Shown here: positions 4,551-28,043 of the stretch, one piece after another
Layout: each line of letters starts with the position of its first letter
How positions within the stretch are numbered: position 1 is the stretch's first letter
Source: a virus
Taxonomy: Duplodnaviria > Heunggongvirae > Uroviricota > Caudoviricetes
Length of the DNA stretch: 64,000 nt
IMG/VR virus record: IMGVR_UViG_3300029828_000006
Span: 1 to 64,000 of that record
Strand: one strand, 5' to 3'
Notes under the pieces: generated by a model
Seen by the model: the letters and a program-made list of their open reading frames with translations, nothing else
Told to the model about the DNA's origin: nothing
Database searches by the model: none
Program-made: the position numbers and the translations under genes

Positions 4551-5213
4551 TCACTCCACTACAAACCAGTCACATGCCAGTAAGTCGCCTACAGAAGGAA
4601 CCCACGGAACAACTACACCTTGTGCATTTTTTAAGGCGAAATAAGCACCATACGGAACGAGGTCGCCGGGGAAATATCCCTTAATGGCTTCCATTCGTGC
4701 CGGGTACTGTCCTTCAGGAACCAGCCAGCAGAATTGGTTTTCACCGTTCCACCCGCGTCGAGCAACTTTCTTTCCTTCCTTCAGCCACATCAGCGCGTCA
4801 GAAAAGTCGGCTGCTTCAAGGTCGATTTCTTCTTGCTGGGTGGTGATGCCACCAGCAGAAATAGTTACGCTTCCGGAAATATTAATGTTCACGCCGTTGT
4901 CATCCGTAATGATGACCGTGGTCCCATTTTCGGAGGTGTCGTTAACCCGGCTATAGCATTTTTCAAATGCTTTCTCTGGCACATAGACCGGATAGCCATT
5001 TTCAGCAGTGACGAGATATCCTCCTATTTGCGGTCGGAATCTTTCCAAGAACACACCATCAACACGAAGCGTCATTCCTTTTGGCTCAACGACTTCGATA
5101 CTGCCCAAAATGGGCGCATCAGTTTCGCCGACAATAACAATATCTTTGATTTTCGATGCCCGAATGATGCTGTGGCTTTTGTATTTGGGGAACACCTGAA
5201 AAGTGCTAGCCAT
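4551..5213 (-). CDS. two-domain protein with C-terminal DUF2829 (Tad2-like) domain
   Basis: C-terminal FSDALMWLKEGKKVARRGWNG...VVPWVPSVGDLLACDWFVVE matches recalled DUF2829 signature. Confidence 0.5.
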   Translation of the reverse strand: MASTFQVFPKYKSHSIIRASKIKDIVIVGETDAPILGSIEVVEPKGMTLRVDGVFLERFRPQIGGYLVTAENGYPVYVPEKAFEKCYSRVNDTSENGTTVIITDDNGVNINISGSVTISAGGITTQQEEIDLEAADFSDALMWLKEGKKVARRGWNGENQFCWLVPEGQYPARMEAIKGYFPGDLVPYGAYFALKNAQGVVVPWVPSVGDLLACDWFVVE

Positions 5214-5227
5214 AATCTTTCCTCTAC

Positions 5228-5722
5228 TTAAAACTTTTCGTACTGAAGCGGTGTACGCTTGATTTCAACGCGGTCTTCCGATGTACTACCAAAGCCACCA
5301 GCACCTCGCTCTGTTTCATCGAGTTCATCAACTTCTACCAGCGATACCGGTTCAACACGCTCAAAAATGCCTTGCATGACAGCCATTCCAGGCTTGAGGC
5401 AAATGCCTTCCCCGCCGGGATCAGCAATCAGTTTTGCCATGATTTCACCGCGATAATCGGAGTCGATAATTCCTACGCAGTTAGCCAGGCGAGTATGTTT
5501 TTTGCAGCCCAATCCGGATCGTGGATAGAGTTTCAGACACCAGCCGGGCGGGATCTCCATAGCCAGTCCGGTATACACCCACCAGCTTGAGGAAATTGCA
5601 CCATTGCTATCGACGCATGGTTTTATTTCAACAGCCTCAAAATCCATCGCCGCCGATCCGGAGGTGGCATAAGCTGGAAGTTTTGCTGCCGGATGTAGGC
5701 GTTTCACTTTTACGTAAATCAT
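5228..5722 (-). CDS. dut: dUTPase (trimeric Dut family)
   Basis: Five Dut motifs visible: ATSGSAAMD, YPRSGLG, GIIDSDYRGE, MQGIFE, RGAGGFGSTS. Confidence 0.75.
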   Translation of the reverse strand: MIYVKVKRLHPAAKLPAYATSGSAAMDFEAVEIKPCVDSNGAISSSWWVYTGLAMEIPPGWCLKLYPRSGLGCKKHTRLANCVGIIDSDYRGEIMAKLIADPGGEGICLKPGMAVMQGIFERVEPVSLVEVDELDETERGAGGFGSTSEDRVEIKRTPLQYEKF

Positions 5723-6195
5723 TGTTTTTTAGCTCTCTGCGTGAAGGTGTAAACCCGACGTTTGATATGTGGAACGGTAGGAACAGGAAGACAGGAACTT
5801 TCAATAACCCCTTGCTCCTCCAGCGATCGCACCGCCCGCAAGAACTGCGACGTGTCGCCGCCAAACTGGCGGGCATAGGTGCTGCCGTTAAGAAGTATTT
5901 GAGCTATTACCCGAGCTTTTGTCTGGCTGTCACGATATGCGAATAGCCGCACGGCCTCTTCTGGCGCAATCGCTAACTGATAGCCTTTCCCGGCACGGTG
6001 TCGAATGAATCCATGCGCCAGTAGGTTTTTGAGTTCGTTACGAGTGCGAACAGATCCGTAATCCAGGAAGTGTGGATTGATAACGACTGGCTTAAACCAT
6101 TCCGTAGGTGCTTTAGATAATAGAGCTAACAGCTTCCCGGATAATTCTGGATAGGAAGACGGGTAACAATTCAGAGATGGGTAATAAGTTTTCAC
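5719..6195 (-). CDS. hypothetical protein (158 aa), possible winged-helix
   Basis: Overlaps neighbours by 4 bp (coupled); no firm domain. Confidence 0.45.
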   Translation of the reverse strand: MKTYYPSLNCYPSSYPELSGKLLALLSKAPTEWFKPVVINPHFLDYGSVRTRNELKNLLAHGFIRHRAGKGYQLAIAPEEAVRLFAYRDSQTKARVIAQILLNGSTYARQFGGDTSQFLRAVRSLEEQGVIESSCLPVPTVPHIKRRVYTFTQRAKKQ

Positions 6196-6536
6196 CGACG
6201 CCCCCTTGCAGGATATCGACCTGCATTAGTATCCGGTGCAATAAAGCCGGTAGTGGGGCGAGTGAAAGCGAGATTAATCTTCTCGACCATAGTGCGATAA
6301 TTTTCCTGATAGTGGGCCAGGAGTTTTTCGGCGGCAATGATGGTTACTTTCCGGACGTAGCTTTCTGCTTCCTCCAGATTTCGCCAGTTTTTTTCGAGGG
6401 TAAACACAGGGACGGCCTCAAGCCCGGTCATGATGCCGAACACAACGACAGCATGACTGTTCTTAACACCAGCGGCGAAGGTTACGGTGTAACCATCCAC
6501 CTTGAAGCGTCTTGATTCCGTGATTTGACTCTGCAA
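6192..6536 (-). CDS. hypothetical protein (114 aa)
   Basis: First gene downstream of cre; operator-like motif about 60 nt upstream. Confidence 0.45.
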   Translation of the reverse strand: MQSQITESRRFKVDGYTVTFAAGVKNSHAVVVFGIMTGLEAVPVFTLEKNWRNLEEAESYVRKVTIIAAEKLLAHYQENYRTMVEKINLAFTRPTTGFIAPDTNAGRYPARGRR

Positions 6537-6592
6537 AGCACCCTCCTAAATAGGCGAGGGTACTTTACAGCAAAGACGTTAATCTAAAAAGA

Positions 6593-6608
6593 TGTGTTAG
6601 AAATTTAA
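6593..6608 (+). promoter_or_regulatory. conserved 16-bp motif TGTGTTAGAAATTTAA (candidate operator)
   Basis: Family consensus T(A/G)TGTTAGAAA(A/T)(C/T)TAA; at cre 3' end upstream of 6192..6536. Confidence 0.4.
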
Positions 6609-6609
6609 T

Positions 6610-7638
6610 TTACGAATCCATCAGGCGGCTATTAGCCCCCACAGACACGCCGCCACGGCGAAGATACCGCATAAGTGTTTCCGGTTTCTTCCAGGTTCCT
6701 TCCTGCATGATCTCCACCATAGACACCTGCTTTTCAGCCATATCAATAGCGGCCCCGACGCGTGCACTATGCCCGGTCCACGTCCGGTATCTTCCTTTGT
6801 TTGGCGTAGCATCTCTTTTATTCAGCAACACCCAGGCGTCGCTGAATATTTTCTCCATTGCAGGTGCAGTAAGGGGCGTTATCGTGATCCTGGCCTTATT
6901 GCTACGGTGTATCGGCGGGAACAGCACTGCGTCAGGATGTTCGCGAAGCCCGGAAACATCCAGCCAGTCATTCAGCACAGCGGTAGTGCGACGGGAAAGC
7001 ACCTTATCAAGCCCGGCGGCGGTCGTTATTGTCTTCGTGTGTGAAATATGTAGCGTGACAGTGTCACCTGTTTGGTCCAGATCTCCTACACGAATACGCG
7101 AGATTTCCGACATACGCATCAGCGTATTGTATGCAACAAAGAGAAAAGCCCGGTTGCGCAGGTCCACCAGCCGTTCTGACCTGGACAACAGGACGTCGAG
7201 CAGTTTCAGATCGTCCCACCGCAGCGGTATAGCCTGGCCTGTTCGTTCGCCTTTTTCCGTTGCCGCTTCACGCCGGATGCGCCGCATAGCCAGAGAAACA
7301 CTTTTATCATCCGAAAGTGGCGGAAGGCCACAATGCGAAAGCAGCATGTTAAGCATGGCGTAGTGCTTATCAATGGTGGTCGAAGCCAGATCAGCATCAT
7401 GCAGCTGAAGAAAATACTCGCGGGCCATCTCTGGTGAGATCGGGAACCAGGCGAGCTGGCGAGCGTGACACCATCTCGCCCAGGAGTGAAACACTAACCG
7501 GAGATCGCGCAAAGTATTCGGCGCATAAGCCCCCTGGTCATTCATGAACCGCATAAAGTTTTCTGCGGCCTCCTGGTACTCTTTGCCAATGTTGCGCAGA
7601 AAACCACCGGAGCTGCCAGAGATAATTAATTCACTCAT
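6610..7638 (-). CDS. cre: Cre-like tyrosine site-specific recombinase
   Basis: 342 aa; aligns with Cre along its length (RRIRRE, AYNTLMRMSEISRIRVGD, TGHSARVGAAIDMA, EIMQEGTW...Y); diverged from P1 Cre. Confidence 0.85.
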   Translation of the reverse strand: MSELIISGSSGGFLRNIGKEYQEAAENFMRFMNDQGAYAPNTLRDLRLVFHSWARWCHARQLAWFPISPEMAREYFLQLHDADLASTTIDKHYAMLNMLLSHCGLPPLSDDKSVSLAMRRIRREAATEKGERTGQAIPLRWDDLKLLDVLLSRSERLVDLRNRAFLFVAYNTLMRMSEISRIRVGDLDQTGDTVTLHISHTKTITTAAGLDKVLSRRTTAVLNDWLDVSGLREHPDAVLFPPIHRSNKARITITPLTAPAMEKIFSDAWVLLNKRDATPNKGRYRTWTGHSARVGAAIDMAEKQVSMVEIMQEGTWKKPETLMRYLRRGGVSVGANSRLMDS

Positions 7639-7789
7639 GAAACTATTTCACCTCTATATACAGATGACGCTACGCGAAAAATATAAAAATGACAGGGTAG
7701 CTATAAGTTAATTTTCAAAATACAACCCTTTGATTCGATGCACGTATTTTCAGTGATGTCAACACTGTTCATCTACACATGATTATAGC

Positions 7790-7823
7790 CTAACTTTAAA
7801 TAATGCCAATTATTTAAAGTTAT
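7790..7823. other. lox-like site (13-bp inverted arms, 8-bp spacer)
   Basis: CTAACTTTAAATA-ATGCCAAT-TATTTAAAGTTAT; arms share ATAACTT with loxP; 150 bp upstream of cre start. Confidence 0.6.
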
Positions 7824-8002
7824 AAAATGCCGATTTTTTTTAATCCATCATAGATTGATGATGACCAGTAACACGTTGCCTTCATGGTCTTTAATTTGCG
7901 AAGTGTGGTTTCTACGGTTGGTTTTCTAAAATTGATGACAAAAAATCACAGTTCGATCCTTTACTCACTCTGTTATTCGACATAAATTTGTCATAGTAAT
8001 TT

Positions 8003-8018: not shown

Positions 8019-8032
8019 ATCGAGTAGGAATA

Positions 8033-10606: not shown

Positions 10607-11970
10607 TAATCATCCTCCGGCGGTTCTATCGCGATATCATCATCTCCGGCGTCATACCCTGCATCAGATGCATCATAATCACCGTAAATTTCAGCCGTTG
10701 CCGAAGGGTCAATATCCAGCTCTTCGTCGTTGGCCTCGAATTCTCCAGCTTTACGCTCGCCATTGCGGTCGTAATCTCCGCACCCCAATTCTTCAACAAT
10801 GGTTGCCACATCCGCCCGGCGCTCTGCCAGCCATTGCGGATGGTTAGCCTGAAGCGTTGCAAACTCCCTTGCCTCTTTGTCCAGCTGTTCATCATCAACA
10901 TCATTGACGTCAGAAACAGGTGGTTCGAGAAGAGTGATAGCTTTCGCCGCGCGCGCCGCGAGGATAGCCGGGACGCTGACACCCTGGCGCTCGATGTATT
11001 CAGCAACACCGATATCATCCAGTTCCTCGCGCTCACGCATACGTATAGCGGCGGCGATAACTCTGGCTGCGCGTGCGTCAGCGCCAATGCGATATTCAAT
11101 CTCTTTGCCACGCTGTTCGGCCTGTAGGCGTGCTAATTCGAGTTTTTCTCTGGCCTCAGCCTCTTTGAATGCTTGCTGGCGAGCGCTCTGACGAAGCTTT
11201 TCATCCCCCTGTCGCAGCTTTTGTTCGGACTGATATATAGCTGCCAACCTACTGATAAAATCATTCATGTAGTAGGCCGCGTCACTGATTAGACCGAGAA
11301 GGCGCTGCCCAGGGTGCATTCCTTCTGGCTCTTTATCGCCCAAGGCGTCTATTTCCGCCTGTAGACGTTCGGCCTCCTGATCAACAATGCTTTGATACTG
11401 AAGTGCGCGCTCTTGCGCCATTTGAATTGCTAACCGCAGGTGTTCTTCTGCGCCGTTCTTCATCATATCGCGAGCCACATTCGTAGTTGGCAATGTGGCA
11501 CGCTGCACAGCACCGTCAGGGATCATTGCAGAAGATCCCTCAATTTTTGGGGCGTTTTTATCTTCTTCGGGGATCATTTTCGCCATTTTTTCGCGCAATG
11601 ATCTCCTGACGGATTCTTTTATCTCATTGTTATTATTTGAATTATTTTCATGATCCGAAGTTTTCTTTCTCGGCATACTTCGGAAAGAACCTGCGCCCTG
11701 CGAATTGTCAATTTCTGTAAATTTTGTTTTTTCTGCACCCTCTTCCAGCTTTTTTGTTGCTCTTCCCGCCCGTTTTTTTTCAGGTGATTTGGTGCTTTTT
11801 TTTGTTGTCTTTACCTGCGACCGCACCTCATTTTTTTTCATATTGAGATGCTTTCTGGCTGTATTGAAGCTAAGGCCATGCTCCTCACAGTATTCCTTTA
11901 CAGTGATCCCTTTTTCTTCACGCAACGCTATAAAGCGGGCGCGGTGCTCCTCCCAATTAACCAGACTCAT
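10606..11970 (-). CDS. pacA: PacA, terminase small subunit / pac recognition
   Basis: 454 aa, N-terminal HTH-like, acidic C-terminus; contains GATC cluster. Confidence 0.75.
   Translation of the reverse strand: MSLVNWEEHRARFIALREEKGITVKEYCEEHGLSFNTARKHLNMKKNEVRSQVKTTKKSTKSPEKKRAGRATKKLEEGAEKTKFTEIDNSQGAGSFRSMPRKKTSDHENNSNNNNEIKESVRRSLREKMAKMIPEEDKNAPKIEGSSAMIPDGAVQRATLPTTNVARDMMKNGAEEHLRLAIQMAQERALQYQSIVDQEAERLQAEIDALGDKEPEGMHPGQRLLGLISDAAYYMNDFISRLAAIYQSEQKLRQGDEKLRQSARQQAFKEAEAREKLELARLQAEQRGKEIEYRIGADARAARVIAAAIRMREREELDDIGVAEYIERQGVSVPAILAARAAKAITLLEPPVSDVNDVDDEQLDKEAREFATLQANHPQWLAERRADVATIVEELGCGDYDRNGERKAGEFEANDEELDIDPSATAEIYGDYDASDAGYDAGDDDIAIEPPEDD
11510..11656. other. candidate pac site (cluster of TGATCN/GATC elements)
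   Basis: Five GATC within 147 bp inside pacA 5' part, in two groups, resembling P1 pac hexamer organisation. Confidence 0.35.
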
Positions 11971-12359
11971 AAAGCAACACCACGCTTTTTAACGGCGGCA
12001 TTCCACAGCTTATTCGCCATGTCCACCAGCTCTCGTTGCTCTTTTCGCGCCTGTTCGACTGATTTCCTGCTACAGTTTTTAACCAGTAAACTGCCATATT
12101 CAGGGGTTCGCCCACGCACCTTGAACTGATATCCGTTCAGGCCATGCAACCAGTATTTTCGTGGGTAAACACGATCATCAAGCTCACAGATTGCCCTGCT
12201 TGAACGAACAAAATGACGAATGATGTTAGTTACACTTACTCGTGAAACATGGAGATGAGGGTATTTTTCTTTGGCGAGAGTGGTAATTTCAGTGACTGTC
12301 AGATAGCAGTCAGCCCTGATCATGATATCCGCAATTTCTGCGCTGCTGATTTGTTCCAT
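11967..12359 (-). CDS. Lpa-like late promoter activator (positional)
   Basis: 130 aa ORF overlapping pacA start, at the position lpa holds in P1; operator-like motif upstream. Confidence 0.35.
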   Translation of the reverse strand: MEQISSAEIADIMIRADCYLTVTEITTLAKEKYPHLHVSRVSVTNIIRHFVRSSRAICELDDRVYPRKYWLHGLNGYQFKVRGRTPEYGSLLVKNCSRKSVEQARKEQRELVDMANKLWNAAVKKRGVAL

Positions 12360-12467: not shown

Positions 12468-12860
12468 CTACCAGCGAGACAAACGAACAACATGTTTCAC
12501 TTTTGCGATCCACTGTCCGCGATAACTATTGATTACGGCCTGTGCCAGCTTCAAATTGGCTTCAAAATCAGCCTTACTACCATCAGACTCCACCAGCATT
12601 CCTCCATCTATTTCTGGTAAACATAGATAATCCTGCTCAACCTGCAGCGGCATTGATGGCTCTCTGAATGGGGTTACTTGCTCTGCTTTCCAGCGAAATC
12701 TAACCCTTATCCCCCTGGTGGTCATTACTAGATAGCCTGTTATAGTGCTTTTATGGCCCACATCAGTACGCGTGGCATTGCATGACACGATCTTACAGTT
12801 AGCGATAGACCACTCCATATTGGTGGCCTGTTGAGTGCTTAATTTGGTAGTCCCGTACAT
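12468..12860 (-). CDS. hypothetical protein (130 aa)
   Basis: Coupled to upstream gene; no domain recognised. Confidence 0.45.
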   Translation of the reverse strand: MYGTTKLSTQQATNMEWSIANCKIVSCNATRTDVGHKSTITGYLVMTTRGIRVRFRWKAEQVTPFREPSMPLQVEQDYLCLPEIDGGMLVESDGSKADFEANLKLAQAVINSYRGQWIAKVKHVVRLSRW

Positions 12861-13435
12861 CAGAAAGCCTCCCAGTCAGTCGCGATAATATCCACACCAG
12901 TTGCAAACCAGTCTGTCTGCGCCTGTAAATCACCATTCATCATTACCAGGCGAGGCATCACCATCACATCGCACCCTTCCACAATATCGAATGCCTCTTC
13001 CGGCAAGAATTCGAAGAGCTTTTCTTTGCTGCCAATGCTGCCACGGAACATCGATATATAGCTCCCTTTAGGCCATGATGTCCGCCGGGCATCAAGCCCT
13101 TTCATCATCCAGTAAAAAGCCGAGGAAAAAGGGATATTCTTTTTGCCAATGATTACATTATTCGCTTCTGTGTACTTCAGGAACTTAACTAACCTTACCA
13201 TTGACTCGGATAACGCAACGTATGGCTCATGATTGATTGCTGACACGCTTACACCGTGCAATCCAACGCTTACCACTGTCATATCGCCGCTCTGTGCGGT
13301 TTCGATATTGACGCCTTTGCGAACTAATGAGGCGTAAAGTTCCTCTCGCTTTTGGGTCCAGCGTTCCCGCTTCCCTATGAAGTCACTCAAAATGAGATCT
13401 TCTTCTGCATATGCGTTATCGTTCGCCATTAACAT
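12860..13435 (-). CDS. protein with C-terminal DUF2829-like domain (191 aa)
   Basis: AFYWMMKGLDARRTSW ... DIIATDWEAF matches DUF2829 pattern. Confidence 0.4.
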   Translation of the reverse strand: MLMANDNAYAEEDLILSDFIGKRERWTQKREELYASLVRKGVNIETAQSGDMTVVSVGLHGVSVSAINHEPYVALSESMVRLVKFLKYTEANNVIIGKKNIPFSSAFYWMMKGLDARRTSWPKGSYISMFRGSIGSKEKLFEFLPEEAFDIVEGCDVMVMPRLVMMNGDLQAQTDWFATGVDIIATDWEAF

Positions 13436-13889: not shown

Positions 13890-13965
13890 TGGTGGCCCCT
13901 ACCGGACTTGAACCGGTGACCGTGCGATTATGAGTCGCCAGCTCTAACCACTGAGCTAAGGGGCC
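13890..13965 (-). tRNA. tRNA-Ile2 (anticodon CAU, lysidine type)
   Basis: 76 nt with CCA; near-identical to recalled E. coli ileX; anticodon loop CTCATAA. Confidence 0.9.
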
Positions 13966-13974
13966 AATTAGTTT

Positions 13975-14088
13975 TTATTTTCGACGCCTGAGATTCTTCG
14001 CTACTTGTTCTACTCCGTATACGATCACAAGCAGAAATAGCAAAGACCATCCAGGGTTCTTATCAATATACGTCCAAAAATCCATCAT
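13975..14088 (-). CDS. small membrane peptide (37 aa), TciC-position
   Basis: ATGATGG start overlaps upstream stop; one hydrophobic helix; below track cut-off. Confidence 0.3.
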   Translation of the reverse strand: MMDFWTYIDKNPGWSLLFLLVIVYGVEQVAKNLRRRK

Positions 14089-14249
14089 GAGTTCCTGAAC
14101 GCAGCTTTAATAATCGGCAATAGCAATACCACAGCTACTGAAACCAGTGCCCCATCAGCCAACACCGACATCACTTTGCTGGTGAAATCCACCAGCACGG
14201 ACAAAACGAGAAAACCAATGGCGCACGCAATACGCGCCTTGCCAATCAT
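14085..14249 (-). CDS. small membrane protein (54 aa), TciB-position
   Basis: Start overlaps tciA stop; two hydrophobic segments. Confidence 0.3.
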   Translation of the reverse strand: MIGKARIACAIGFLVLSVLVDFTSKVMSVLADGALVSVAVVLLLPIIKAAFRNS

Positions 14250-14683
14250 TACAGATAATCTTCCACACGAAGGCCCAAACGACGGCCTACTTCTTCCAGT
14301 ACTTTGTGTTCTGCTGGCTCGATTTCACCGTCCGCTTCTGCAATCGTCAGCATGTTAACGAATACTTCTTCCGCTTCTTTTGGATCATTTTTGATATCTT
14401 CAATTTCGCGAAGGATATTCATGCGACCAACACGGAAACCAGCTTCCAGTTGCTCAGTAAAACGGGTGATTGTTGCGGTAATTTCGTTGCCAAAATGACT
14501 TAAGCGAGGATTAGAGCGGACAAGCTGATCAAGTTTCGCTGTTTCTTCCTTTTCGATTTCACCATCTGCGGCAGACACCAACAAACAGCCACCGATAATG
14601 GCCTCCATCAGATCGCGATTCTCAACCCTTTTCAGCTCTACTTTTGCTGAAGCGACTTTCTTACCGAAAAATTTACCGAACAT
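14249..14683 (-). CDS. tciA: TerB-like protein (TciA-like)
   Basis: 144 aa with paired acidic helical repeats typical of the TerB fold. Confidence 0.6.
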   Translation of the reverse strand: MFGKFFGKKVASAKVELKRVENRDLMEAIIGGCLLVSAADGEIEKEETAKLDQLVRSNPRLSHFGNEITATITRFTEQLEAGFRVGRMNILREIEDIKNDPKEAEEVFVNMLTIAEADGEIEPAEHKVLEEVGRRLGLRVEDYL

Positions 14684-14950
14684 TGGTTATCCCTCAATAA
14701 ACATGACGTATTTATTAGGTTGCGGTGCCTGGTGCCTCCAGGTGACGTTAACCAGTTAACAATTAACGCCGGGATGTTTGACTTAACCACTAAGGAGGAT
14801 TGTTTTAACTGTTCCGCGTGCGCATAGCCGCATTCACCGCAATGGTAAGAGCACTTGGCTGGCTGGGCGGCGATGACGCCTGTACGCATTTGGTGATCCG
14901 GTTCTGCTTCCGGCATTCGCTTAATTAGCCAAATACTCTTAACGTTGCAC

Positions 14951-15037
14951 TGGCGGAGAGTAATGGAATCGAACCATCATCGCTTGCGCAATGGGACGGT
15001 TTTCAAGACCGTTTGAGCACCATGCTCCCTACTCTCC
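14951..15037 (-). tRNA. tRNA-Ser (anticodon UGA)
   Basis: 87 nt type II tRNA; acceptor GGAGAGT/ACTCTCC, anticodon loop CTTGAAA, long variable arm, CCA. Confidence 0.8.
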
Positions 15038-15139
15038 AGTGATTGTGATGGTCGGTGCTGAACTCCGACACAGGGTTGTAGCAAGCCCCGCAAAGCGCGC
15101 ACTACTGTAGTTGCGGCACATCAGCCTGTGCATTCACCA

Positions 15140-15229
15140 CAATGTTGAGAACACTGGTTGTCACGCTGCAACGCAACATTTATTCGTAGATTGGGATATG
15201 ACCCCGTTACGCCAGTGTTCTCAACGTTG
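15140..15229. repeat. long-stem hairpin (18-bp stem, 54-nt loop)
   Basis: CAATGTTGAGAACACTGG ... CCAGTGTTCTCAACGTTG, one wobble; preceded by conserved leader. Confidence 0.5.
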
Positions 15230-15370
15230 TAGTGCCGGTTACGGTTCCGGCCAGGCCTCTTCCTCAACGGGGTGTTCTCCATACGGACTACCGTTTATTG
15301 GTCGTTCCTGCGGTTTATGTTGTGAAGCCAGATGCTTATCTTCTGGTTGCTTCAAAGAGCTGCACTTCAT

Positions 15371-15438
15371 CACAACGGTAAGAGCACTCGATGCATTTAA
15401 GCCAAGCCCCATAAGGGAGAATGCCCTTACCTGTTGTG
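15371..15438. repeat. imperfect long-stem hairpin, same family
   Basis: CACAACGGTAAG ... CTTACCTGTTGTG; shares leader and GCTTGGC with next unit. Confidence 0.45.
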
Positions 15439-15566
15439 TTGTGATGACCGGTGCTGATCTCCGGCTTGCGGTTATTTCAGACTCTCACGGGCGTTTATTT
15501 GCCCCGCCGAACAGCTCTTTTCCGCAATAGCTGCAATGTCTTTCGCGCATCAGCCTGCGCATTCAT

Positions 15567-15653
15567 CACAACGGTAAGGGTACTTCGTAGGGATTCGAAC
15601 CCTCTGCCAAGCACGGCGATCTCCGACGTCGCAAAATACCCTTACCTGTTGTG
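15567..15653 (-). ncRNA. tRNA-like element lacking a D-arm
   Basis: Minus strand has canonical T-arm AGGG-TTCGAAT-CCCT and a 4-bp/9-nt hairpin inside a 16-bp stem; abuts tRNA-Thr. Confidence 0.4.
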
Positions 15654-15654
15654 T

Positions 15655-15730
15655 TGGTGCCGGTTAACGGACTCGAACCGCTGACATCCTGCTTACAAGG
15701 CAGGCGCTCTACCAACTGAGCTAAACCGGC
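15655..15730 (-). tRNA. tRNA-Thr (anticodon UGU)
   Basis: 76 nt; acceptor GCCGGTT/AACCGGC, anticodon loop CTTGTAA, CCA. Confidence 0.9.
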
Positions 15731-15734
15731 AATT

Positions 15735-15821
15735 TGGTGGGGAGTGATGGAGTCGAACCACCCGAGTCGCAATGACAGTAGATTTACAGTCTACCCCGCT
15801 ACCCCTACGGACTAACTCCCC
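15735..15821 (-). tRNA. tRNA-Tyr (anticodon GUA)
   Basis: 87 nt type II; anticodon arm AGACTGTAAATCT as in E. coli tRNA-Tyr; CCA. Confidence 0.85.
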
Positions 15822-15826
15822 TGAAT

Positions 15827-15903
15827 TGGCGATGGTGGGTGGATTCGAACCACCGACCGACAGCTTAGAAGGCTGCTGCTCTATCCTACTGAGCTACACC
15901 ACC
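15827..15903 (-). tRNA. tRNA-Arg (anticodon UCU)
   Basis: 77 nt; anticodon loop CTTCTAA; CCA. Confidence 0.85.
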
Positions 15904-18460: not shown

Positions 18461-18775
18461 TTACTGTGTTGCAGCCTGATAAATAAGATACGCGATAAAT
18501 ACAGGTACGATGGCCCATTGCAGCAATGAAAGTAGCCTCATTACTGTTATTGGGGTAACTCCATCCACGTATTGTTTCTCTGACATTTTCCCTAACCAAC
18601 TAACCGACAACAGTGCCGAGTTTTCCCCCAATTCCAGCTCTCTGAGAGCTTCACGGATTAACGGCGCTGTCACAGCCTTAACCGGTGTGCTCAACGTGAT
18701 ACTCCGCGTCCTCCCCGCATCGTCAGCGAACGCCAGACTCACATAATATTTTTTGCTCAATGTACAAACTCCCAA
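18461..18775 (-). CDS. small protein with C-terminal transmembrane helix (104 aa)
   Basis: Hydrophobic C-terminus LLSLLQWAIVPVFIAYLIY. Confidence 0.4.
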   Translation of the reverse strand: MGVCTLSKKYYVSLAFADDAGRTRSITLSTPVKAVTAPLIREALRELELGENSALLSVSWLGKMSEKQYVDGVTPITVMRLLSLLQWAIVPVFIAYLIYQAATQ

Positions 18776-18957
18776 TCATCAGCGCTTGCACTTTCCGGGG
18801 TTATGTGAACCTTATCGCCAGTAACAATATTGCGAGCTTCAAAACTTCCATTGATACGTTTCGAGATCTCAATACATAGAGCCTGCTGCCATGAGCGACG
18901 ACGAGCGATAGCATTAGTTCCTGCAGGGATAAGTTCTGCCACGTTAAGTAAACGCAA
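18757..18957 (-). CDS. hypothetical small protein (66 aa)
   Basis: ORF overlapping downstream gene start. Confidence 0.3.
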   Translation of the reverse strand: MRLLNVAELIPAGTNAIARRRSWQQALCIEISKRINGSFEARNIVTGDKVHITPESASADDWEFVH

Positions 18958-23300: not shown

Positions 23301-26300
23301 AACATCATCTGCCACTTTACCGCCAGCTACTTTTGGCAAGGCATCAGCAATAGCTTTTACCTGGTCTGCAAGCTCAACGGGGAACTGGAATGTAATCGCA
23401 CTGGCATACAGATCCGGGTCTATAGCAACCTTGTCCATGTCACGGATGATGGAGAAGATGAAATCATCCGGTTTGTCGTTAGTGATATGCCCGTTTTCAT
23501 CGACTGTCAGCTCATCATTGCGACTTAACTCCTGAGCACGCTTACGAAGCTCTTCATAAGCAGTCTCCTGCTCCCCTGTCATCGGGATCTGCAAGGTGTT
23601 CTCAATGATGTCGGGAATTTTAACCGTTGCTCCGACATCTGCAGCAGTCTTCAGAGTGGTCCAACGATGGAAAATACCACGCAGGCCGTCAAGGTTCTGG
23701 AAGCCCACCAGCCCCTGCTTCTCTTCCACTTCCCCGGAAATTTTCTGGACCTGAACTGTGGCTGTTTTGCCAAACACACGAACGAAATCATCAGGCGTAA
23801 TGATGCCCATGCGCATCCACTCTTCCTGCGGAATGACAGTAGACAGCATGTTGAAGGCATCAATCGGACTGTTCACCAGCGGAGTTGCCGTCAGCATGAC
23901 TACACCACGCCCGTTGTTGCGTTTCATCATGTACGCAGCTTTTACAGCCATGTCGCGGGCCATCTTGGATACTGCCGGGTTAGGCAAATATGCCAGTTGT
24001 CCCGCTTCACGCCCGGCATTAAAGGAGTTGCGGTAGTTATGCCCCTCGTCGGCAATCACGCTATCGAAGTTCATATCCTCAAAGTACGGGATATTCTGCT
24101 TCTTCGTTGTACCGGTATTCGCGGCCTGATCCTTAATCTTGTTCTTCTTCTGCGCATCACGGTGTTTACCGGACGCCAGGTCAAGACGCCCCATTTCCAC
24201 AGCATTAAAGACAGCTTGCTGTGAGTTCTCCTCGATGGTTTTTTCTCGTAGCGGGATAGACGCGAATTGTTCTTTTGTCATGATGACCGTTCGCCAATTT
24301 GACGACGGGATCATGTTCATGCGCTGAACGATAACGGCGCTGGCGGACTCTTTCACAACATTTCTGGTAAGAGGCTGCCCGTTACTGTCGAGGCGTGGTT
24401 CGCCATTTTCATCAAGCACCGGCGCGGTCAGAATATTTCCGCTGTCATCACGAACTTCATCCAAACCGATAAACATCATATTGGCGAAGGCATCAGCACT
24501 GTAGAAACTCTGTGCCTCGTGATACCAGTTCTGATAAACCGCCTTCGGAACAACAATACACGTGCGTTTAGTGCGACCTGTTTCGAAGTTATACGCCTCA
24601 AGCGCAAGCGCGGTCGTGGTTTTACCCAGCCCGGTACCAAATCCCATGATGCCGCGCCCATCTTCTGACAAGCGCCGAACTTCTTCATTCTGATAAGTAA
24701 GAGGAATGCGCTTTCCACTAAGCCCTTCCAGGCCAAGCGGTGCGTCAGAATGCGTGAACGGAATGAAACCATTGAATGCGTCGTTATACTCGCGGGCTAT
24801 CTGATCAGCCTGCGGGTGAGTGCGTAACCAGTCGTTAAAACTAACTTCCAGTTGAGCAATTTTATCCAGGTACTCGTTAGCGTTCTGCCCACGCGGTTTA
24901 ACACCGTTCAGGTAGTTTTCTAACTGGTTCAGGAAGCCGTCTTTATTGTTGGCCTTCTTGAACTCATTCCCGTTTTTGCCGTTTACGGTTCGTAGCTGAT
25001 AGCCGGTAAATACCCCGTCCTTACCTTCGTAATCGTCCGGAGATACCAGAATGCCATCGACGACCTTCAGATCAGGTTCAGTGTACTTAAACTCGTCATA
25101 GCCCTGCTCTGCCAGGAACTCTTTTATCAAGCGGCGATCCAGCCAGCGGGCATTCAGATTAACGGTGACTTTATTTAGTGGCGTGAAAATACGTTTCTCT
25201 TCGATTTTCGCCAACTGACGCTCAAAGTTCGCTTTCTGCTCACCTGTTGACGCATCACGCCAGCCCATCAGCAATGCTGTTTTGGTTGCAATATCGCCGC
25301 TGGTGGCGCGGTCCATCGGCAGCAGGCAGCCATACCCATCAATAGCGATATCATCAAATTTCGCCAGGTATTCAAGGGCCGCGTCGTCGTCCTCTGGCAG
25401 TTCACCAGCAAACGCCTCACGAAAGTCTCCCAGCGTTATAGGATTAAGGGCTACATCACTGAAAAGATGTGCTATCACTTGTTCAGGACGTGTAAAGTCA
25501 ATACCGGCAGCACCATCCGTTACATCAAGTCGCCCTGCCAGAAGGTCAGAAGTGGAACCATCCTGTTTCACATTGCCAGTGAACGTCATCCAGTTTTTAG
25601 CGCCAGCTTCAGCAAGCCCATTCAGCTTAATGGCGTGCGGTGGCCCATACTTCGCAACTTCTGCTGCCGCCAGGCGGGATGCATCTGCCAGTTTGTCATC
25701 AACGTTCACACCCAGGTTACGCAAATCAAGTGCCTTGTTGATCAACTGACCTATCAGCGCACCGCGCATAACGCGCTCCCTGTCTTTTTCTCGCTGCTTG
25801 CCAGCAAAGCGAATCATTGCTGCCACTTCATCACTGACAACCGATGGATAGTCGGACGCGATCGCCGATATCTGGTCCCATGACAAAGCCAGAATCCCGT
25901 TTGTTGACTGGAACGCGATCTGCAGATCGCCAAACGTCGAAACACCATATCGACTTACATCAAGCGCGGAGGATTTGGTTGTCGTGTCCTTAACCCATTT
26001 CAGACCATCAAACTCATGCCAGATACCGCCTACAAGGCGTTTATCGCCCACTTTCGCGCCCTGCCATGCCTGAGTAGTTACGCCGAGCAAATCCCAATTG
26101 ATGCGACTATCAAAGCGACGAGATAGCGCGGTTTTCATCGACTCATTGGATACACGACCGTCTTTTTTCACCACCAGGGTATTGCGGAAGCTGGTACGTT
26201 CCATGTCGCCGTAAACAAATCGCTTCCCTTCGGTTGTAAACCATTTTCCTTTGAGGAAGGTATCCCAAAGGACGTTTGCCGATTTGAGTGTTGAATCATC

Positions 26301-27173
26301 CGTGTCGGGGATCATCTCCAGGAAGGTTTCCGGGTGTTTACGCAATACCCATACGTCCACCACGGTATCTGTACCGGATTCGCTGAACGTACCGGAAGGC
26401 ATACGATGTGCGCCCAAAAATTCCGCTTTACGGCTGACTTTATCGCGCAATTTTTTATATTTCGCACCATCGGTCATGCCATTTGGCACCACCAATACGA
26501 TAAGCCCACCAGGCTTAACCTTGTCGATCGTGCGCAGCACAAAGTAATTGCCAACGTTCTTCTCGTTTGCATATGCCGGATCAAGCCCGGCAACGCCGGA
26601 ACGCCCTTCACCAAACGGTACGTTACCAACAGCGTGGTCATACATTGCATCTTTCGCCGCCAGCGCCTCAAACGCCCCGATATTCACATCGTCTTCCGGG
26701 TGCAAAAGCTGGTTTATTCGACCAGAAATCGGAGACAGTTCGGCGCTGGTCATTATCATGCCCTGCCGTTTTGTCTCCTGGAAAATACCTGTGCCCGCTG
26801 ATGGTTCCAGTACGTGCCCGCCATCAATACCGTAGTCAGCAAACAGATCCCATATACCTTCAGCCATAAACTGTGGCGTGTAGTATTCGTATTGGCTGCC
26901 CTCACCATCTGTCAGGCCGCCTTCACCGGTATACCCAGCAAGAATCTGACGTTGTTCGTCAGTTAATTTCGCCCCATCGAAGCCGGGCGGAAGGGAATTA
27001 AGAAGATTTACTGCGGCATTGTTTGCTGCCCGGCGTGTTTTCTGAATACTGACGCCATCGGCTTTCCTGACGCCAAAGGTCGCAACAGCACGTAATTTAT
27101 GCAACCGACTAACAATTTCAATCAGTTCGCCTAAGCTGGAGGCTTCACTGATTGAATGAAGTAGTTTGTCCAA
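20337..27173 (-). CDS. darB: DarB-like antirestriction protein (N6-adenine methyltransferase + DExH helicase, 2278 aa)
   Basis: N-terminal EPSAGTG and NVPFG MTase motifs; central GFGTGLGKTT and IADEGH helicase motifs; TTG start with GAGGGGG RBS. Confidence 0.8.
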   Translation of the reverse strand: MDKLLHSISEASSLGELIEIVSRLHKLRAVATFGVRKADGVSIQKTRRAANNAAVNLLNSLPPGFDGAKLTDEQRQILAGYTGEGGLTDGEGSQYEYYTPQFMAEGIWDLFADYGIDGGHVLEPSAGTGIFQETKRQGMIMTSAELSPISGRINQLLHPEDDVNIGAFEALAAKDAMYDHAVGNVPFGEGRSGVAGLDPAYANEKNVGNYFVLRTIDKVKPGGLIVLVVPNGMTDGAKYKKLRDKVSRKAEFLGAHRMPSGTFSESGTDTVVDVWVLRKHPETFLEMIPDTDDSTLKSANVLWDTFLKGKWFTTEGKRFVYGDMERTSFRNTLVVKKDGRVSNESMKTALSRRFDSRINWDLLGVTTQAWQGAKVGDKRLVGGIWHEFDGLKWVKDTTTKSSALDVSRYGVSTFGDLQIAFQSTNGILALSWDQISAIASDYPSVVSDEVAAMIRFAGKQREKDRERVMRGALIGQLINKALDLRNLGVNVDDKLADASRLAAAEVAKYGPPHAIKLNGLAEAGAKNWMTFTGNVKQDGSTSDLLAGRLDVTDGAAGIDFTRPEQVIAHLFSDVALNPITLGDFREAFAGELPEDDDAALEYLAKFDDIAIDGYGCLLPMDRATSGDIATKTALLMGWRDASTGEQKANFERQLAKIEEKRIFTPLNKVTVNLNARWLDRRLIKEFLAEQGYDEFKYTEPDLKVVDGILVSPDDYEGKDGVFTGYQLRTVNGKNGNEFKKANNKDGFLNQLENYLNGVKPRGQNANEYLDKIAQLEVSFNDWLRTHPQADQIAREYNDAFNGFIPFTHSDAPLGLEGLSGKRIPLTYQNEEVRRLSEDGRGIMGFGTGLGKTTTALALEAYNFETGRTKRTCIVVPKAVYQNWYHEAQSFYSADAFANMMFIGLDEVRDDSGNILTAPVLDENGEPRLDSNGQPLTRNVVKESASAVIVQRMNMIPSSNWRTVIMTKEQFASIPLREKTIEENSQQAVFNAVEMGRLDLASGKHRDAQKKNKIKDQAANTGTTKKQNIPYFEDMNFDSVIADEGHNYRNSFNAGREAGQLAYLPNPAVSKMARDMAVKAAYMMKRNNGRGVVMLTATPLVNSPIDAFNMLSTVIPQEEWMRMGIITPDDFVRVFGKTATVQVQKISGEVEEKQGLVGFQNLDGLRGIFHRWTTLKTAADVGATVKIPDIIENTLQIPMTGEQETAYEELRKRAQELSRNDELTVDENGHITNDKPDDFIFSIIRDMDKVAIDPDLYASAITFQFPVELADQVKAIADALPKVAGGKVADDVDEAEEDGAGGLVSTRTSKVVKTAFSEHPTHVEIRASIELEAEILKAIAAAGIDMQQVSHPIPPKYAALIENLREGLKNGKQIVFIDEKAQHQKLRRIIASALQMPEQEIGIINATTVSQAGGIKLKKVNKPTEPTPNKNGEYKEGAWETYYSKLAQYEDYLSAKNDAGLEGMEGIAADYNEGRTRIIICNKKAEVGINLHIGTTDIHHLTLPWTPASIDQRNGRGARVGSPQEKVNVHYYCGKGTFDDFRLDTLKRKKDWIKMVMTSDMSEIANGDADDADERAIMLAANPEERRAIMARQAQEREERLKLKAQREANNALDIYLKAANAAGKDIGMMETELKSAMEQIEYYQRNLDDLIKAGTNRNGQKYALEQLSSYRKRARVLRFAITRAKDADTIMKRSRGDVERAIKSGVLDISIDVIQNPQEYMRTDKNILLHKGSYYRAVIDDRETTAIVRVEKIDGEKAQYLCRIAWLDRASRYARAPGSIVTLPFDSVIEAVTFEEGVAESRATAARGVQCHQLSTILTRDQFYDAIRNGVMNVIAGKPGNAWGGGSAIKYWAYRTDDGQIALSSTYDGMIGQKIGRTSDIAPEQWIYPDINNEALKREVAKIQASDNPLNIVDGEGFLQALYGYDYIQGMQAWGAQATMDDVAQEFENWMAGRGLSGRSLNKVTSEDILSLFRKPSGEGLESFWRTVLAYRLFQGRMKAFSNIDDIERMFNQVKIAKIKAKIEKTRSALVAWRDALFEQYKSLSDADGWAALEQLANNGVDGAKLAIVQADNPLESPAAQWIKVGAVINAFDEKHISKDDFADAVSVNRLVEMATRRARELKDGDYVNELPDALKSATWQDYVSLKNGGATESEIAKRLEQAESKREEQAAVAEARADEAANDDYIIVVNDKPIRAKARVRGRWWSVSEDVGAVYLIADQPGSSTIRNAKDAIKKIGGRFWNFEANPVADVNFDRPAWMVSTRYSVDELRKIIADAA

Positions 27174-27324
27174 AGGATTTCCCCCTCTAAACCGTAAAAA
27201 ATTCCGCTATGCGGTACGGTTGAGAGGGTATGGAGAATGTTATTTTCAGGGGGACGATACTACCGTCAAAATCACATACTCCCCATAGTTTGCCTACTTA
27301 TTAACCCATGACCGGGAGAAAAAT

Positions 27325-27810
27325 ATGGCAAACATTGAACCTCGCTGGCTAATTGAAGCCCGTAAGCACATTGGCCTGACTGAAATAAAAGGCGCTAAAC
27401 ACAACCCTGAAATCGTTCAGTTCTGGCGCGACATCAAGCGCGGCGGAATTAAAGACGATGAAACGCCGTGGTGCGCAGCATTTGTCGGTGCAATGCTGGA
27501 ACGTGTAGGCATCCGCTCAACAAGATTTGAGTCGGCAAAATCCTATCTGGATTGGGGCGAAAAATTAGATACACCGGCATACGGATGTATCGTTGTATTT
27601 ACCCGCGTAGGCGGTGGGCACGTAGGCTTCGTTGTCGGACGCCGTGCCAATGGCGATCTGCTTGTCCTGGGTGGGAACCAGGGGGATGCTGTTAATATTC
27701 GCGCATTCCCAACATCAAGAGTGTCTGGCTATCGCTGGCCTGCTGGCGAACCACGCAATACCGCTCTGTTACCAGTCGGAGACGCAGCAACCTCAACTAA
27801 TGAGGCATGA
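27325..27810 (+). CDS. peptidoglycan hydrolase of the TIGR02594 / NlpC-P60-like family
   Basis: PWCAAFV catalytic Cys context and GGGHVGFVVG His motif; 161 aa. Confidence 0.6.
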   Translation: MANIEPRWLIEARKHIGLTEIKGAKHNPEIVQFWRDIKRGGIKDDETPWCAAFVGAMLERVGIRSTRFESAKSYLDWGEKLDTPAYGCIVVFTRVGGGHVGFVVGRRANGDLLVLGGNQGDAVNIRAFPTSRVSGYRWPAGEPRNTALLPVGDAATSTNEA

Positions 27811-27836
27811 AAAAAGCCCCGGCCAGGCCGGGGCAT
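27811..27836. terminator. GC-rich hairpin terminator
   Basis: GCCCCGGCC/GGCCGGGGC stem after A-run; between convergent genes. Confidence 0.5.
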
Positions 27837-27842
27837 CACGCT

Positions 27843-28043
27843 TCAAGTCACGATCCAATCATTACCGACTATATCAGCCGTCGATAAATCAACTTCCCGG
27901 ATCTGGAGTCCATTAATACAAAACCATCCGGTAGTAGAGTAATTATCAGGCCAGGCCCATACACCAACACTCCATACTTTACGGCGGCACACTTCAGCCT
28001 GTCCTTCCCTGATTTTTTTTACCGCCTGCATGATGTCCATCAC
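27843..28043 (-). CDS. stand-alone DUF2829 (Tad2-like) protein (66 aa)
   Basis: AVKKIREGQAEVCRRKVW ... ADIVGNDWIV matches DUF2829 pattern. Confidence 0.45.
   Translation of the reverse strand: MMDIMQAVKKIREGQAEVCRRKVWSVGVWAWPDNYSTTGWFCINGLQIREVDLSTADIVGNDWIVT

What the first reader, a model, noticed from the sequence alone, without database searches (positions are those of the whole stretch)
4551..28043. Three DUF2829 (Tad2-like) domains in one genome segment
ORFs 4551..5213 and 12860..13435 end in a DUF2829-like domain and 27843..28043 is a stand-alone copy. All share the pattern A-x-x-(L/I)-K-x-G-x-x-V-x-R-R-x-W and a C-terminal D-(L/I)-(L/V)-(A/G)-x-D-W. Tad2, the characterised member, sequesters Thoeris signalling nucleotides; three copies with different partners may target different signals.
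Basis: partly seen in the sequence, partly recalled or inferred. Interest (0 to 1): 0.6.

Follow-up and report, generated by a model that had tools for sequence, protein, structure and literature searches.

The report
Tad2-like sponge paralogues in phage-plasmid
A D6-like (P1-family) phage-plasmid of E. coli carries one clear and two divergent copies of the Tad2 'sponge' domain that phages use to mop up bacterial immune alarm molecules. The clear copy is already annotated in public records; the divergent copies and an unnamed fusion partner are new leads, not proven functions.

Summary
The window is about 98% identical to Escherichia phage D6. All three ORFs exist at the stated coordinates.

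- **ORF1 (4551-5213).** It is a bona fide Tad2-family protein: Pfam PF11195 at 80.5 bits, about 46-50% identity to solved ModTad2, and all canonical pocket residues present. Public plasmid records already call it DUF2829.
- **ORF2 (12860-13435).** It also passes the Pfam threshold (39.1 bits), and its family profile retrieves every solved Tad2. It lacks the phosphate-binding Asn.

The C-terminal motif is real.

New points:
- ORF3 is the last gene of the C4-icd-ant immunity operon, and a paralogue is fused to Ant in D6.
- ORF1's N-terminal half is a phage L Dec-like OB-fold domain. In other phages that domain is mostly stand-alone or fused to Tad2 or Sequestin sponges.

Verdict: a known kind with new variants. 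No ligand has been tested.

The parts
4551..5213 (-). ORF1, 220 aa: a long-form Tad2 protein (OB-fold N-domain + linker + Tad2 domain). It lies between a dUTPase gene (5228-5722) and an isaA-like gene (3768-4544).
   Evidence: It is annotated 'DUF2829 domain-containing protein' in 244 PLSDB plasmids.
4557..4808 (-). Tad2 domain of ORF1 (aa 136-219). Pocket residues are W155-N156-G157 and W204...S207...D210. The 46-aa insertion is of the ModTad2 type.
   Evidence: PF11195 80.5 bits. ModTad2 9eib E 2e-20, with an almost gap-free alignment.
4929..5192 (-). N-terminal OB-fold domain of ORF1 (aa 8-95). It is homologous to the phage L decoration protein Dec. The same domain recurs stand-alone or fused to sponge domains in other phages.
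4809..4928 (-). Variable linker of ORF1 (aa 96-135; TTVIITDDNGVNINISGSVTISAGG...). It aligns with the stalk part of Dec, is modelled with low confidence, and ends in the nearly invariant EIDLEAADFSDAL junction.
12860..13435 (-). ORF2, 191 aa (= D6 orf6): an unknown N-terminal ~100 aa domain plus a divergent Tad2-like domain. It is followed by orf5 (12468-12860) and lpa (11967-12359).
   Evidence: A homologue lies upstream of lpa in Pantoea plasmid pEuc3. The gene is present in 125 plasmid records.
12866..13129 (-). Tad2-like domain of ORF2 (aa 103-190). W121 is kept, the Asn is deleted (SW-PKG), and W176, T179 and D182 are kept.
   Evidence: PF11195 39.1 bits. hhalign 96%. All solved Tad2 sequences are the top PDB profile hits. 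Alignment.
27843..28040 (-). ORF3, 65 aa from the ATG (= D6 orf17): a minimal, probably Tad2-like domain without the beta2-beta5 insertion. W23 and D56 are kept; the Asn and the second Trp are absent. Its start overlaps the ant stop codon (TGATG).
28040..28747 (-). Rha/Roi-type antirepressor gene ant (235 aa), immediately upstream of ORF3 and translationally coupled to it.
28747..28971 (-). icd-like gene, the first protein gene of the immI-type operon.
   Evidence: D6 annotation.
29019..29224 (-). C4 antisense RNA (29019-29104) and its a1/b1 target sites (29172-29224). They define the immI-type operon whose last gene is ORF3.
   Evidence: Rfam RF01695 68.8 bits and RF03163 54.4 bits, both above gathering score.
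18757..18957 (-). Weak candidate fourth mini-domain (= D6 orf11, 66 aa, TTG start): ...AGTNAIARRRSW... and a C-terminal ADDWEFV.
   Evidence: It is the second-best window hit of the ORF3-family HMM (E 0.0087 among 754 segments). hhalign against the ORF3 family scores 20.2, against a shuffle maximum of 18.9. Nothing was found against Tad2 or Pfam. This is marginal.

Best explanation
The window is a D6-like, P1-family phage-plasmid. It encodes a small paralogous set of Tad2-fold proteins at three accessory loci.

ORF1 is a working-type Tad2 sponge. By homology, its C-terminal domain assembles into a homotetramer whose inter-protomer pockets sequester TIR-made ADP-ribose-derived alarm molecules. 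Most likely these are of the His-ADPR/gcADPR kind, and possibly also cyclic mononucleotides through the ModTad2-type insertion pocket. Sequestration would keep Thoeris-type (and perhaps Pycsar-type) effectors inactive. Its N-terminal OB-fold module is a recurrent partner of sponge domains. That module is either a second ligand-binding unit or an assembly unit.

ORF2 and ORF3 belong to a divergent branch of the same fold. That branch has lost the diphosphate-binding Asn, and ORF3 has also lost the insertion and one Trp. If they are sponges, they bind something other than the canonical ligand.

ORF3 is made together with the Ant antirepressor from the C4-controlled immI operon, so it is produced at the moment of infection or derepression.

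What is shown: domain homology, pocket-residue status, operon position and fusion patterns. What is inferred: oligomer state, ligands and anti-defence effect.
For: ORF1:
- PF11195 at 80.5 bits.
- Closest solved relative is ModTad2 (9eib/8v3e, E about 2e-20, same insertion length). ModTad2 binds His-ADPR and cUMP/cCMP.
- W155/N156/G157 and W204/S207/D210 correspond to SPO1 W25/N26/W73/D79 and to HgmTad2 W21/N22/G23/W87/S90/D93. Mutating those residues abolishes binding.
- The locus carries more than 20 cassette variants of the insertion and pocket between near-invariant flanks across 111 homologue clusters, as expected for an arms-race gene.
- N-terminal fusions to Tad2 are functional elsewhere, as in Acb4-Tad2 of phage Pm86.

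ORF2:
- Passes the Pfam gathering score.
- Its profile retrieves all solved Tad2 sequences.
- The invariant G, R, W, D and DW columns are shared with known Tad2.
- The gene stays intact, and upstream of lpa, as far away as Pantoea (24% identity).

ORF3:
- hhalign 84%, about 9 sd above column shuffles.
- It shares the same Asn deletion as the ORF2 family.
- It is the last gene of the C4/icd/ant operon.
- Stand-alone relatives sit in a different accessory locus of other phage-plasmids, which argues for an autonomous small protein.

N-domain: it is fused to Tad2, to Tad2 plus Sequestin, or to Sequestin alone in unrelated phages, and is otherwise mostly stand-alone.
Against: - No ligand binding, oligomer state or anti-defence phenotype was or could be tested here.
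- The His-ADPR contact residues of ModTad2 were not available in the texts I could read, so the ligand call for ORF1 rests on clade membership alone.
- ORF2 and ORF3 lack the Asn that contacts the diphosphate in both solved complexes. ORF3 also lacks the W73/W87 equivalent.
- Fusion of an ORF3-like domain to Ant in D6 suggests a role in antirepression rather than in signal capture.
- D6's own ORF1 orthologue lacks the first ~80 aa, so the OB-fold N-domain is dispensable or lost there.
Confidence: 0.6

Rival explanations
1. ORF3 is not an immune sponge. It is the detached C-terminal domain of an Ant-type antirepressor. It would work with Ant, for example as an oligomerisation or repressor-contact module, in the lysis-lysogeny switch. 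Its resemblance to Tad2 would be only an old shared fold, or chance.
For: - The window's Ant (235 aa) plus ORF3 (65 aa) are collinear over their full length with D6 orf82 (313 aa) of a second icd-ant operon, at 56% identity.
- A TGATG overlap with a GGAGG Shine-Dalgarno sequence indicates coupled translation.
- 122 plasmids keep this arrangement, most with a second ORF3-like place.
- ORF3 lacks two of the four key Tad2 pocket residues and fails Pfam, Foldseek and the PDB HMM search.
Against: - The related stand-alone mini-proteins P0136 and P0137 lie in a different accessory locus, between the capsid gene and upfB/C, with no ant gene nearby.
- Fusion of adjacent operon genes can happen without shared function. 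A dUTPase-Tad2 fusion, P0066, exists at the ORF1 locus.
Confidence: 0.25
2. ORF1 is a virion protein. Its Dec-like OB-fold would bind the capsid and its stalk would display the DUF2829 domain on the particle surface, for example for adhesion or ligand binding outside the cell. It would not be an intracellular sponge.
For: - A stand-alone N-domain gene lies between the portal and major capsid genes in Ralstonia phage GP4.
- One homologue carries a tail-fibre repeat (P0026).
Against: - ORF1 lies in the accessory region next to cre, dUTPase, isaA and phd/doc, not in a morphogenesis block.
- The same N-domain sits next to repressor or Rha genes in Klebsiella phage ZX1 and E. coli phage Bas106.
- It is fused to Sequestin, an intracellular sponge.
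- D6 lacks the OB part.
- The Tad2 pocket residues are fully conserved.
Confidence: 0.08
3. ORF2 and ORF3 are decaying or neutral paralogues of a sponge gene and have no current ligand-binding role.
For: - The diphosphate-binding Asn is lost in both, and one Trp is lost in ORF3.
- Taxonomic range is very narrow. ORF3 has 6 relatives among 1.84 billion cluster representatives, one of them a spurious PKD-repeat match. ORF2 and ORF3 occur only in D6 among 50,697 phage records.
Against: - Both are intact in about 120 plasmids.
- ORF2-type genes stay intact down to 24% identity with invariant G, R, W, K-G, D-W and D columns.
- The ORF3 family keeps 12 invariant positions at 31-40% identity.
Confidence: 0.05
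4. The DUF2829 proteins act as toxins of type I toxin-antitoxin systems (the PGAP name 'MW1434 family type I TA system toxin') or as anti-CRISPRs (AcrIIA7).
For: - PGAP names ORF2 homologues 'MW1434 family type I TA system toxin'.
- HgmTad2 was first reported as AcrIIA7.
Against: - The MW1434 label goes back to a bioinformatic listing in a S. aureus prophage.
- Li et al. could not reproduce any anti-Cas9 activity for HgmTad2 or its homologues.
- No antisense RNA or membrane-peptide features are seen here.
- NCBIfam and PADLOC give no match.
Confidence: 0.02

Closest known systems
ModTad2 / MoTad2 (Myroides odoratus prophage; PDB 8V3E apo, 9EIB with His-ADPR)
   Same: ORF1's aa 132-220 align with one 1-aa gap at about 46-50% identity. 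The insertion length is the same, and the GWNG and W-x-P-S-V-x-D pocket motifs are shared.
   Different: ORF1 carries a 135-aa N-terminal extension (OB-fold plus linker), whereas ModTad2 is 88 aa. Its ligand is untested.
SPO1 Tad2 (Gp34.65; PDB 8SME-8SMG) and HgmTad2/AcrIIA7 (8KBI-8KBM)
   Same: The family is the same (PF11195). The W, N, W and D pocket residues are conserved in ORF1.
   Different: Identity is 36-37%. ORF2 and ORF3 have the Asn deleted. ORF3 has no insertion domain at all: it is shorter than SPO1's and lacks the cyclic-dinucleotide pocket region of HgmTad2.
Sponge-sponge fusions (Acb4-Tad2 of Pasteurella phage Pm86; Tad2-Sequestin PF21825), PMC12265669
   Same: Homologues at the ORF1 locus include N-domain + Tad2 + PF21825 proteins. 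The N-domain behaves as Sequestin does in that study: mostly stand-alone and short, and sometimes fused to known sponges.
   Different: The N-domain is an OB-fold with no Pfam family, and nothing shows that it binds a signal.
Phage L decoration protein Dec (PDB 6E3C)
   Same: The OB-fold plus following stalk region align over Dec residues 14-122.
   Different: There is no evidence for capsid binding. The gene is not in a structural module here, and it is fused to an intracellular-type sponge domain.
Phage P1 immI operon (C4 RNA - icd - ant)
   Same: C4 RNA, the a1/b1 sites, an icd-like gene and an antirepressor gene occur in the same order.
   Different: The antirepressor is of the Rha/Roi type, and the operon has an extra last gene (ORF3). 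D6 has two such operons, one with the extra domain fused to Ant.

Membership tests
Tad2 / DUF2829 (Pfam PF11195) | Match to the Pfam model at or above the gathering score (25 bits) | tested here: met
   ORF1 scores 80.5 bits and ORF2 39.1 bits. This row covers ORF1 and ORF2 only.
Tad2 / DUF2829 (Pfam PF11195) | The same Pfam threshold, applied to ORF3 | tested here: not met
   ORF3 scores 14.5 bits, E 0.053. Its relatives score 16.5, 14.0 and 23.9 bits, all below 25.
Tad2 / DUF2829 (Pfam PF11195) | Tad2 fold (N-terminal helix followed by an antiparallel sheet with a short helix before the last strand) | tested here: inconclusive
Tad2 / DUF2829 (Pfam PF11195) | Ligand-pocket residues (SPO1 W25, N26, W73, D79; HgmTad2 W21, N22, G23, W87, S90, T92, D93) | tested here: met
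   ORF1 has W155, N156, G157, W204, S207 and D210; T92 is replaced by G, as it is by S in ModTad2. This row covers ORF1 only.
Tad2 / DUF2829 (Pfam PF11195) | The same pocket residues in ORF2 and ORF3 | tested here: not met
   ORF2 keeps W121, W176, T179 and D182, but the Asn is deleted (W-PKG). ORF3 keeps W23, S53 and D56, but the Asn is deleted or replaced and V50 stands in place of the second Trp.
Tad2 / DUF2829 (Pfam PF11195) | Homotetramer with pockets at protomer interfaces | not testable with these tools
   No multimer prediction or experiment was available.
Tad2 / DUF2829 (Pfam PF11195) | Sequesters a TIR- or cyclase-made signal and relieves Thoeris, CBASS or Pycsar defence | not testable with these tools
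   This needs binding assays and plaque assays.
Phage L Dec-like OB-fold decoration proteins | OB-fold domain homologous to Dec | tested here: met
Phage L Dec-like OB-fold decoration proteins | Trimeric beta-helix stalk and binding to capsid quasi-threefold sites | not testable with these tools
   The linker is modelled at pLDDT 55-70. There are no virion data.
P1-type immI operon | C4 antisense RNA with a1/b1 sites upstream of icd and an antirepressor gene | tested here: met
   Rfam RF01695 and RF03163 score above gathering at 29019-29224. icd-like, ant and ORF3 follow on the same strand.

The most novel reading that the evidence does not exclude
The Asn-less mini Tad2-fold domain (ORF3, and its copy fused to the C-terminus of the second Ant in D6) is not a sponge. 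It is a small-molecule sensor attached to the antirepressor. The phage-plasmid would read a host nucleotide or immune alarm signal through it and use that to gate derepression, that is, the decision to leave the plasmid state.
Probability: 0.07. Interest if true: 0.85.

Novelty: new variant of a known kind. Interest (0 to 1): 0.45.

Why it matters
Tad2 sponges are an established counter-defence, and ORF1 adds only another member. Three things go beyond that.

1. **A clean natural series.** D6/P1-type phage-plasmids, common in E. coli, Salmonella and Shigella, carry a locus where the ligand-pocket cassette of Tad2 is swapped between otherwise near-identical flanks. This offers a natural series for mapping sponge specificity.

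2. **A candidate new sponge or sponge accessory.** An unnamed OB-fold domain of about 90 aa has relatives at 237 IMG/VR loci. Among the 66 distinct proteins from the 80 best loci it is mostly stand-alone. It is fused to two unrelated sponge families, Tad2 and Sequestin. That is the same signature that led to the discovery of Sequestin.

3. **A possible link to the lysis-lysogeny switch.** A branch of the Tad2 fold without the phosphate-binding Asn sits in, and in one case is fused to, the antirepressor operon. This hints at either immediate-early delivery of an anti-defence protein or a link between signal binding and the switch.

Tried and rejected
- **Single-sequence PDB searches.** phmmer of ORF2 and ORF3 against PDB gave no Tad2 hit. 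ORF2 was recovered only with a family profile. ORF3 was not recovered even then.
- **Foldseek.** The ORF3 model against PDB gave no match with E <= 0.001; the top hits were SH3-like folds.
- **NCBIfam and PADLOC.** Neither gave a match for any of the three proteins or their neighbours. The PGAP name 'MW1434 toxin' could not be traced to a model in the NCBIfam copy.
- **Deep searches for ORF3.** Only 3 word-indexed relatives and 6 cluster representatives were found. One of these, P0134, is a spurious PKD-repeat match.
- **Supplementary tables.** I looked for the window proteins among the 18 tested Tad2 homologues of Hadary et al., but no supplement text is held. The His-ADPR and cUMP contact residues of ModTad2 are only in figures, so residue-level ligand prediction for ORF1 was not possible.
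- **A fourth copy (orf11, 18757-18957).** The evidence is only marginal, so I did not count it.
- **Reading ORF3 purely as an Ant domain.** This was weakened by the non-ant context of P0136 and P0137.
Full report
**What the window is.** Megablast places the segment in Escherichia phage D6, a P1-family plasmid prophage. Identity is 98.5-98.8% over the c1-pacB-pacA-lpa region and 96.7% over the darB-ant region. The D6 annotation identifies dre/cre, c1, pacA/B, lpa, tciA/B, pmg genes, ulx, darB, icd, ant and repL. The best plasmid match, CP088384.1 (E. coli, 91.9 kb), is 100% identical for ORF1 and ORF3. All three ORFs in the finding lie on the minus strand at the stated coordinates.

**Checking the observation.**
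- Pfam PF11195 (Tad2-like, gathering score 25 bits) scores ORF1 at 80.5 bits (aa 136-219), ORF2 at 39.1 bits (aa 103-190) and ORF3 at 14.5 bits (E 0.053, end-to-end alignment).
- The C-terminal D-[LI]-[LVI]-[AG]-x-D-W motif occurs exactly three times in the six-frame translation, only at these C-termini. Base shuffles gave a mean of 0.003.
- An HMM of the Tad2 domain, searched against all 754 stop-to-stop segments of the window, ranks ORF1 first, ORF2 second (E 2.6e-7) and ORF3 third (E 0.23).

**ORF1.**
- Its C-terminal 88 aa are closest to ModTad2 (PDB 9eib/8v3e, E about 2e-20, one 1-aa gap), then HgmTad2/AcrIIA7, SPO1 Tad2 and SptTad2.
- According to the papers:
  - SPO1 Tad2 is a homotetramer that binds 1''-3' gcADPR through W25, N26, W73 and D79.
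  - HgmTad2 uses W21, N22, G23, W87, L88, S90, T92 and D93, plus a second pocket in its insertion for cyclic dinucleotides.
  - ModTad2 binds His-ADPR (type II Thoeris) and, in the insertion pocket, cUMP/cCMP (Pycsar).
- ORF1 keeps W155-N156-G157 and W204...S207...D210, and it has the ModTad2-type 46-aa insertion.
- It is already called 'DUF2829 domain-containing protein' in 244 plasmid records, nearly all ~90-100 kb and non-mobilizable.
- Across 111 homologue clusters the flanks (EIDLEAADFSDALMWLKEGK... and ...W-x-P-S-V-x-D-L-L-A-x-D-W) are nearly invariant. The segment between them comes in more than 20 forms, 31-54 aa long. These include a REWKG form in which the Asn is replaced.

**ORF1's partner domain.**
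- The N-terminal 135 aa were modelled with a 38-sequence alignment (pLDDT about 90 for aa 10-90).
- D6's own orthologue (orf114, 146 aa) lacks the first ~80 aa.
- The same N-domain is fused to Sequestin (PF21825) alone in Klebsiella phage vB_KpnP_ZX1 (BLASTP E 2e-15) and in Burkholderia phage BCSR129.
- It is fused to Tad2 plus Sequestin in P0081, P0084, P0110 and P0112.
- It stands alone (~90 aa) in Ralstonia phage GP4 and E. coli phage Bas106, and in Pseudomonas phage PaBG when the annotated 62-aa ORF is read further upstream.
- In IMG/VR, 237 loci encode a relative. Among 66 distinct proteins from the best 80 loci, 48 are stand-alone, 12 carry Tad2, 2 carry Sequestin and 4 carry another tail.
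- PMC12265669 discovered Sequestin from exactly this kind of fusion pattern and showed that an Acb4-Tad2 fusion is active.
- The N-domain is therefore a candidate sponge or sponge accessory. A capsid-binding role like Dec's is not excluded, since in GP4 the gene lies between the portal and capsid genes.

**ORF2.**
- Single-sequence searches of PDB fail. A five-member family profile retrieves all seven distinct solved Tad2 sequences as the top hits (SptTad2 E 1.5e-5), and hhalign gives 96%.
- The alignment shows invariant G, R, W, D and DW columns shared with known Tad2. The Asn after the pocket Trp is deleted, so WNGxG becomes W-PKG, or W-GKG in Pantoea.
- The N-terminal ~100 aa match nothing.
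- The gene is in 125 plasmid records and, among phage records, only in D6.
- A 24%-identical homologue sits upstream of lpa in Pantoea plasmid pEuc3, so both the gene and its position are old.
- PGAP's name 'MW1434 family type I TA system toxin' traces to a bioinformatic list.

**ORF3.**
- The family is tiny: 3 word-indexed relatives and 6 of 1.84 billion cluster representatives, one of them spurious.
- Evidence for Tad2 homology:
  - full-length sub-threshold Pfam matches in four family members, up to 23.9 bits;
  - hhalign 83.8%, score 31.7, against column-shuffle mean 10.7, sd 2.2 and maximum 19.0;
  - the same Asn deletion as in the ORF2 family, with RRxxWPxG conserved in its relatives.
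- Evidence against: Foldseek finds nothing, the family HMM finds no Tad2 in PDB sequences, and the W73/W87 equivalent is absent.
- I rate it a probable minimal remote homologue, at roughly two in three.

**Context of ORF3.**
- Rfam finds C4 antisense RNA (29019-29104) and its a1/b1 sites (29172-29224) upstream on the same strand. The order is a1/b1, C4, icd-like, ant, ORF3.
- The ant stop and the ORF3 start overlap (TGATG), with GGAGG upstream.
- D6 has a second icd-ant operon outside this window. Its Ant (orf82, 313 aa) is collinear with the window's Ant plus ORF3 at 56% identity, so there the mini-domain is fused to Ant. Most of the 122 plasmids show two ORF3-like places.
- Against a strictly Ant-bound role, the stand-alone relatives P0136 and P0137 lie between the capsid gene and upfB/C in other ~90 kb phage-plasmids, with no ant nearby.

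**Mechanism and ranking.**
- Most likely (0.6 overall, about 0.85 for ORF1 alone): ORF1 is a tetrameric sponge for TIR-derived ADPR-type signals, possibly also for cyclic mononucleotides. ORF2 and ORF3 are members of an Asn-less branch of the same fold with unknown ligands. ORF3 is produced with Ant at infection or derepression.
- Rivals: ORF3 as an Ant accessory domain (0.25), ORF1 as a Dec-like virion protein (0.08), decayed paralogues (0.05), and TA toxin or anti-CRISPR (0.02).
- All ligand, oligomer and phenotype statements are inferences.

**Novelty and score.** ORF1 is an already-annotated member of a known family. The Asn-less branch, its link to the immI/Ant operon, and the recurrent OB-fold partner of two sponge families are new variants and leads. 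I rate interest at 0.45: useful and testable, but not surprising in kind.

Noticed in passing
window 18757-18957 (-): A 66-aa ORF (D6 orf11, TTG start, GGAG upstream) lies between the pmgM-like and pmgR-like genes. Its layout loosely resembles the mini Tad2 domain (…AGTNAIARRRSW… and a C-terminal ADDWEFV). It is the second-best window hit of the ORF3-family HMM, but only marginally above shuffles, and Pfam finds nothing.
   Followed up: partly
outside the window: D6 NC_050154.1 74022-75178 (L005:29023-30179): D6 has a second icd-ant operon. Its Ant (orf82, 313 aa) ends in an ORF3-like domain, so the same phage holds a split version and a fused version. Most D6-like plasmids show two ORF3-like places.
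   Followed up: yes
window 4929-5192 (-); loci L011, L012, L014, L015, L016-L095: An unnamed ~90-aa OB-fold domain family (motifs P-x-Y-x-C-H-K and GGY-x-V-x-Y-E-D-G-Y-x-S-Y-S-P) has relatives at 237 IMG/VR loci. Among the 66 distinct proteins from the 80 best loci it is mostly stand-alone, and sometimes fused to Tad2 or Sequestin. It has no Pfam model.
   Followed up: partly
homologues of window 4551-5213 (P0014-P0133): The Tad2 insertion and pocket region is exchanged as a cassette between near-invariant flanks: more than 20 forms, including REWKG in place of RGWNG. Some relatives are in-frame fusions of the neighbouring dUTPase with the Tad2 domain (P0066), or carry a tail-fibre repeat (P0026).
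   Followed up: partly
window 13890-15903 (-): ARAGORN calls five tRNA genes (Met, Ser-tga, Thr, Tyr, Arg-tct) on the minus strand. The D6 record annotates its tRNAs in this region on the other strand and with partly different identities (Ser, Thr, Asn).
   Followed up: no
window 29019-29224 (-): C4 antisense RNA and its a1/b1 target sites score above Rfam gathering thresholds. The P1-type immI control is therefore present, even though the antirepressor is of the Rha/Roi type rather than P1 Ant.
   Followed up: yes
window 4551-5213 compared with D6 88126-88566: This element's ORF1 has the full OB-fold N-domain, whereas D6's orthologue (orf114, 146 aa) starts at about residue 75-81. The same truncated form occurs in some Salmonella and Shigella plasmids.
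   Followed up: partly
L008 2466-4291; L009 2267-4207: In other ~90 kb phage-plasmids the ORF3-like mini genes (P0137, P0136) end a short plus-strand cluster of small unknown genes between the major capsid gene and upfB/C. This cluster may be another accessory or anti-defence islet.
   Followed up: no
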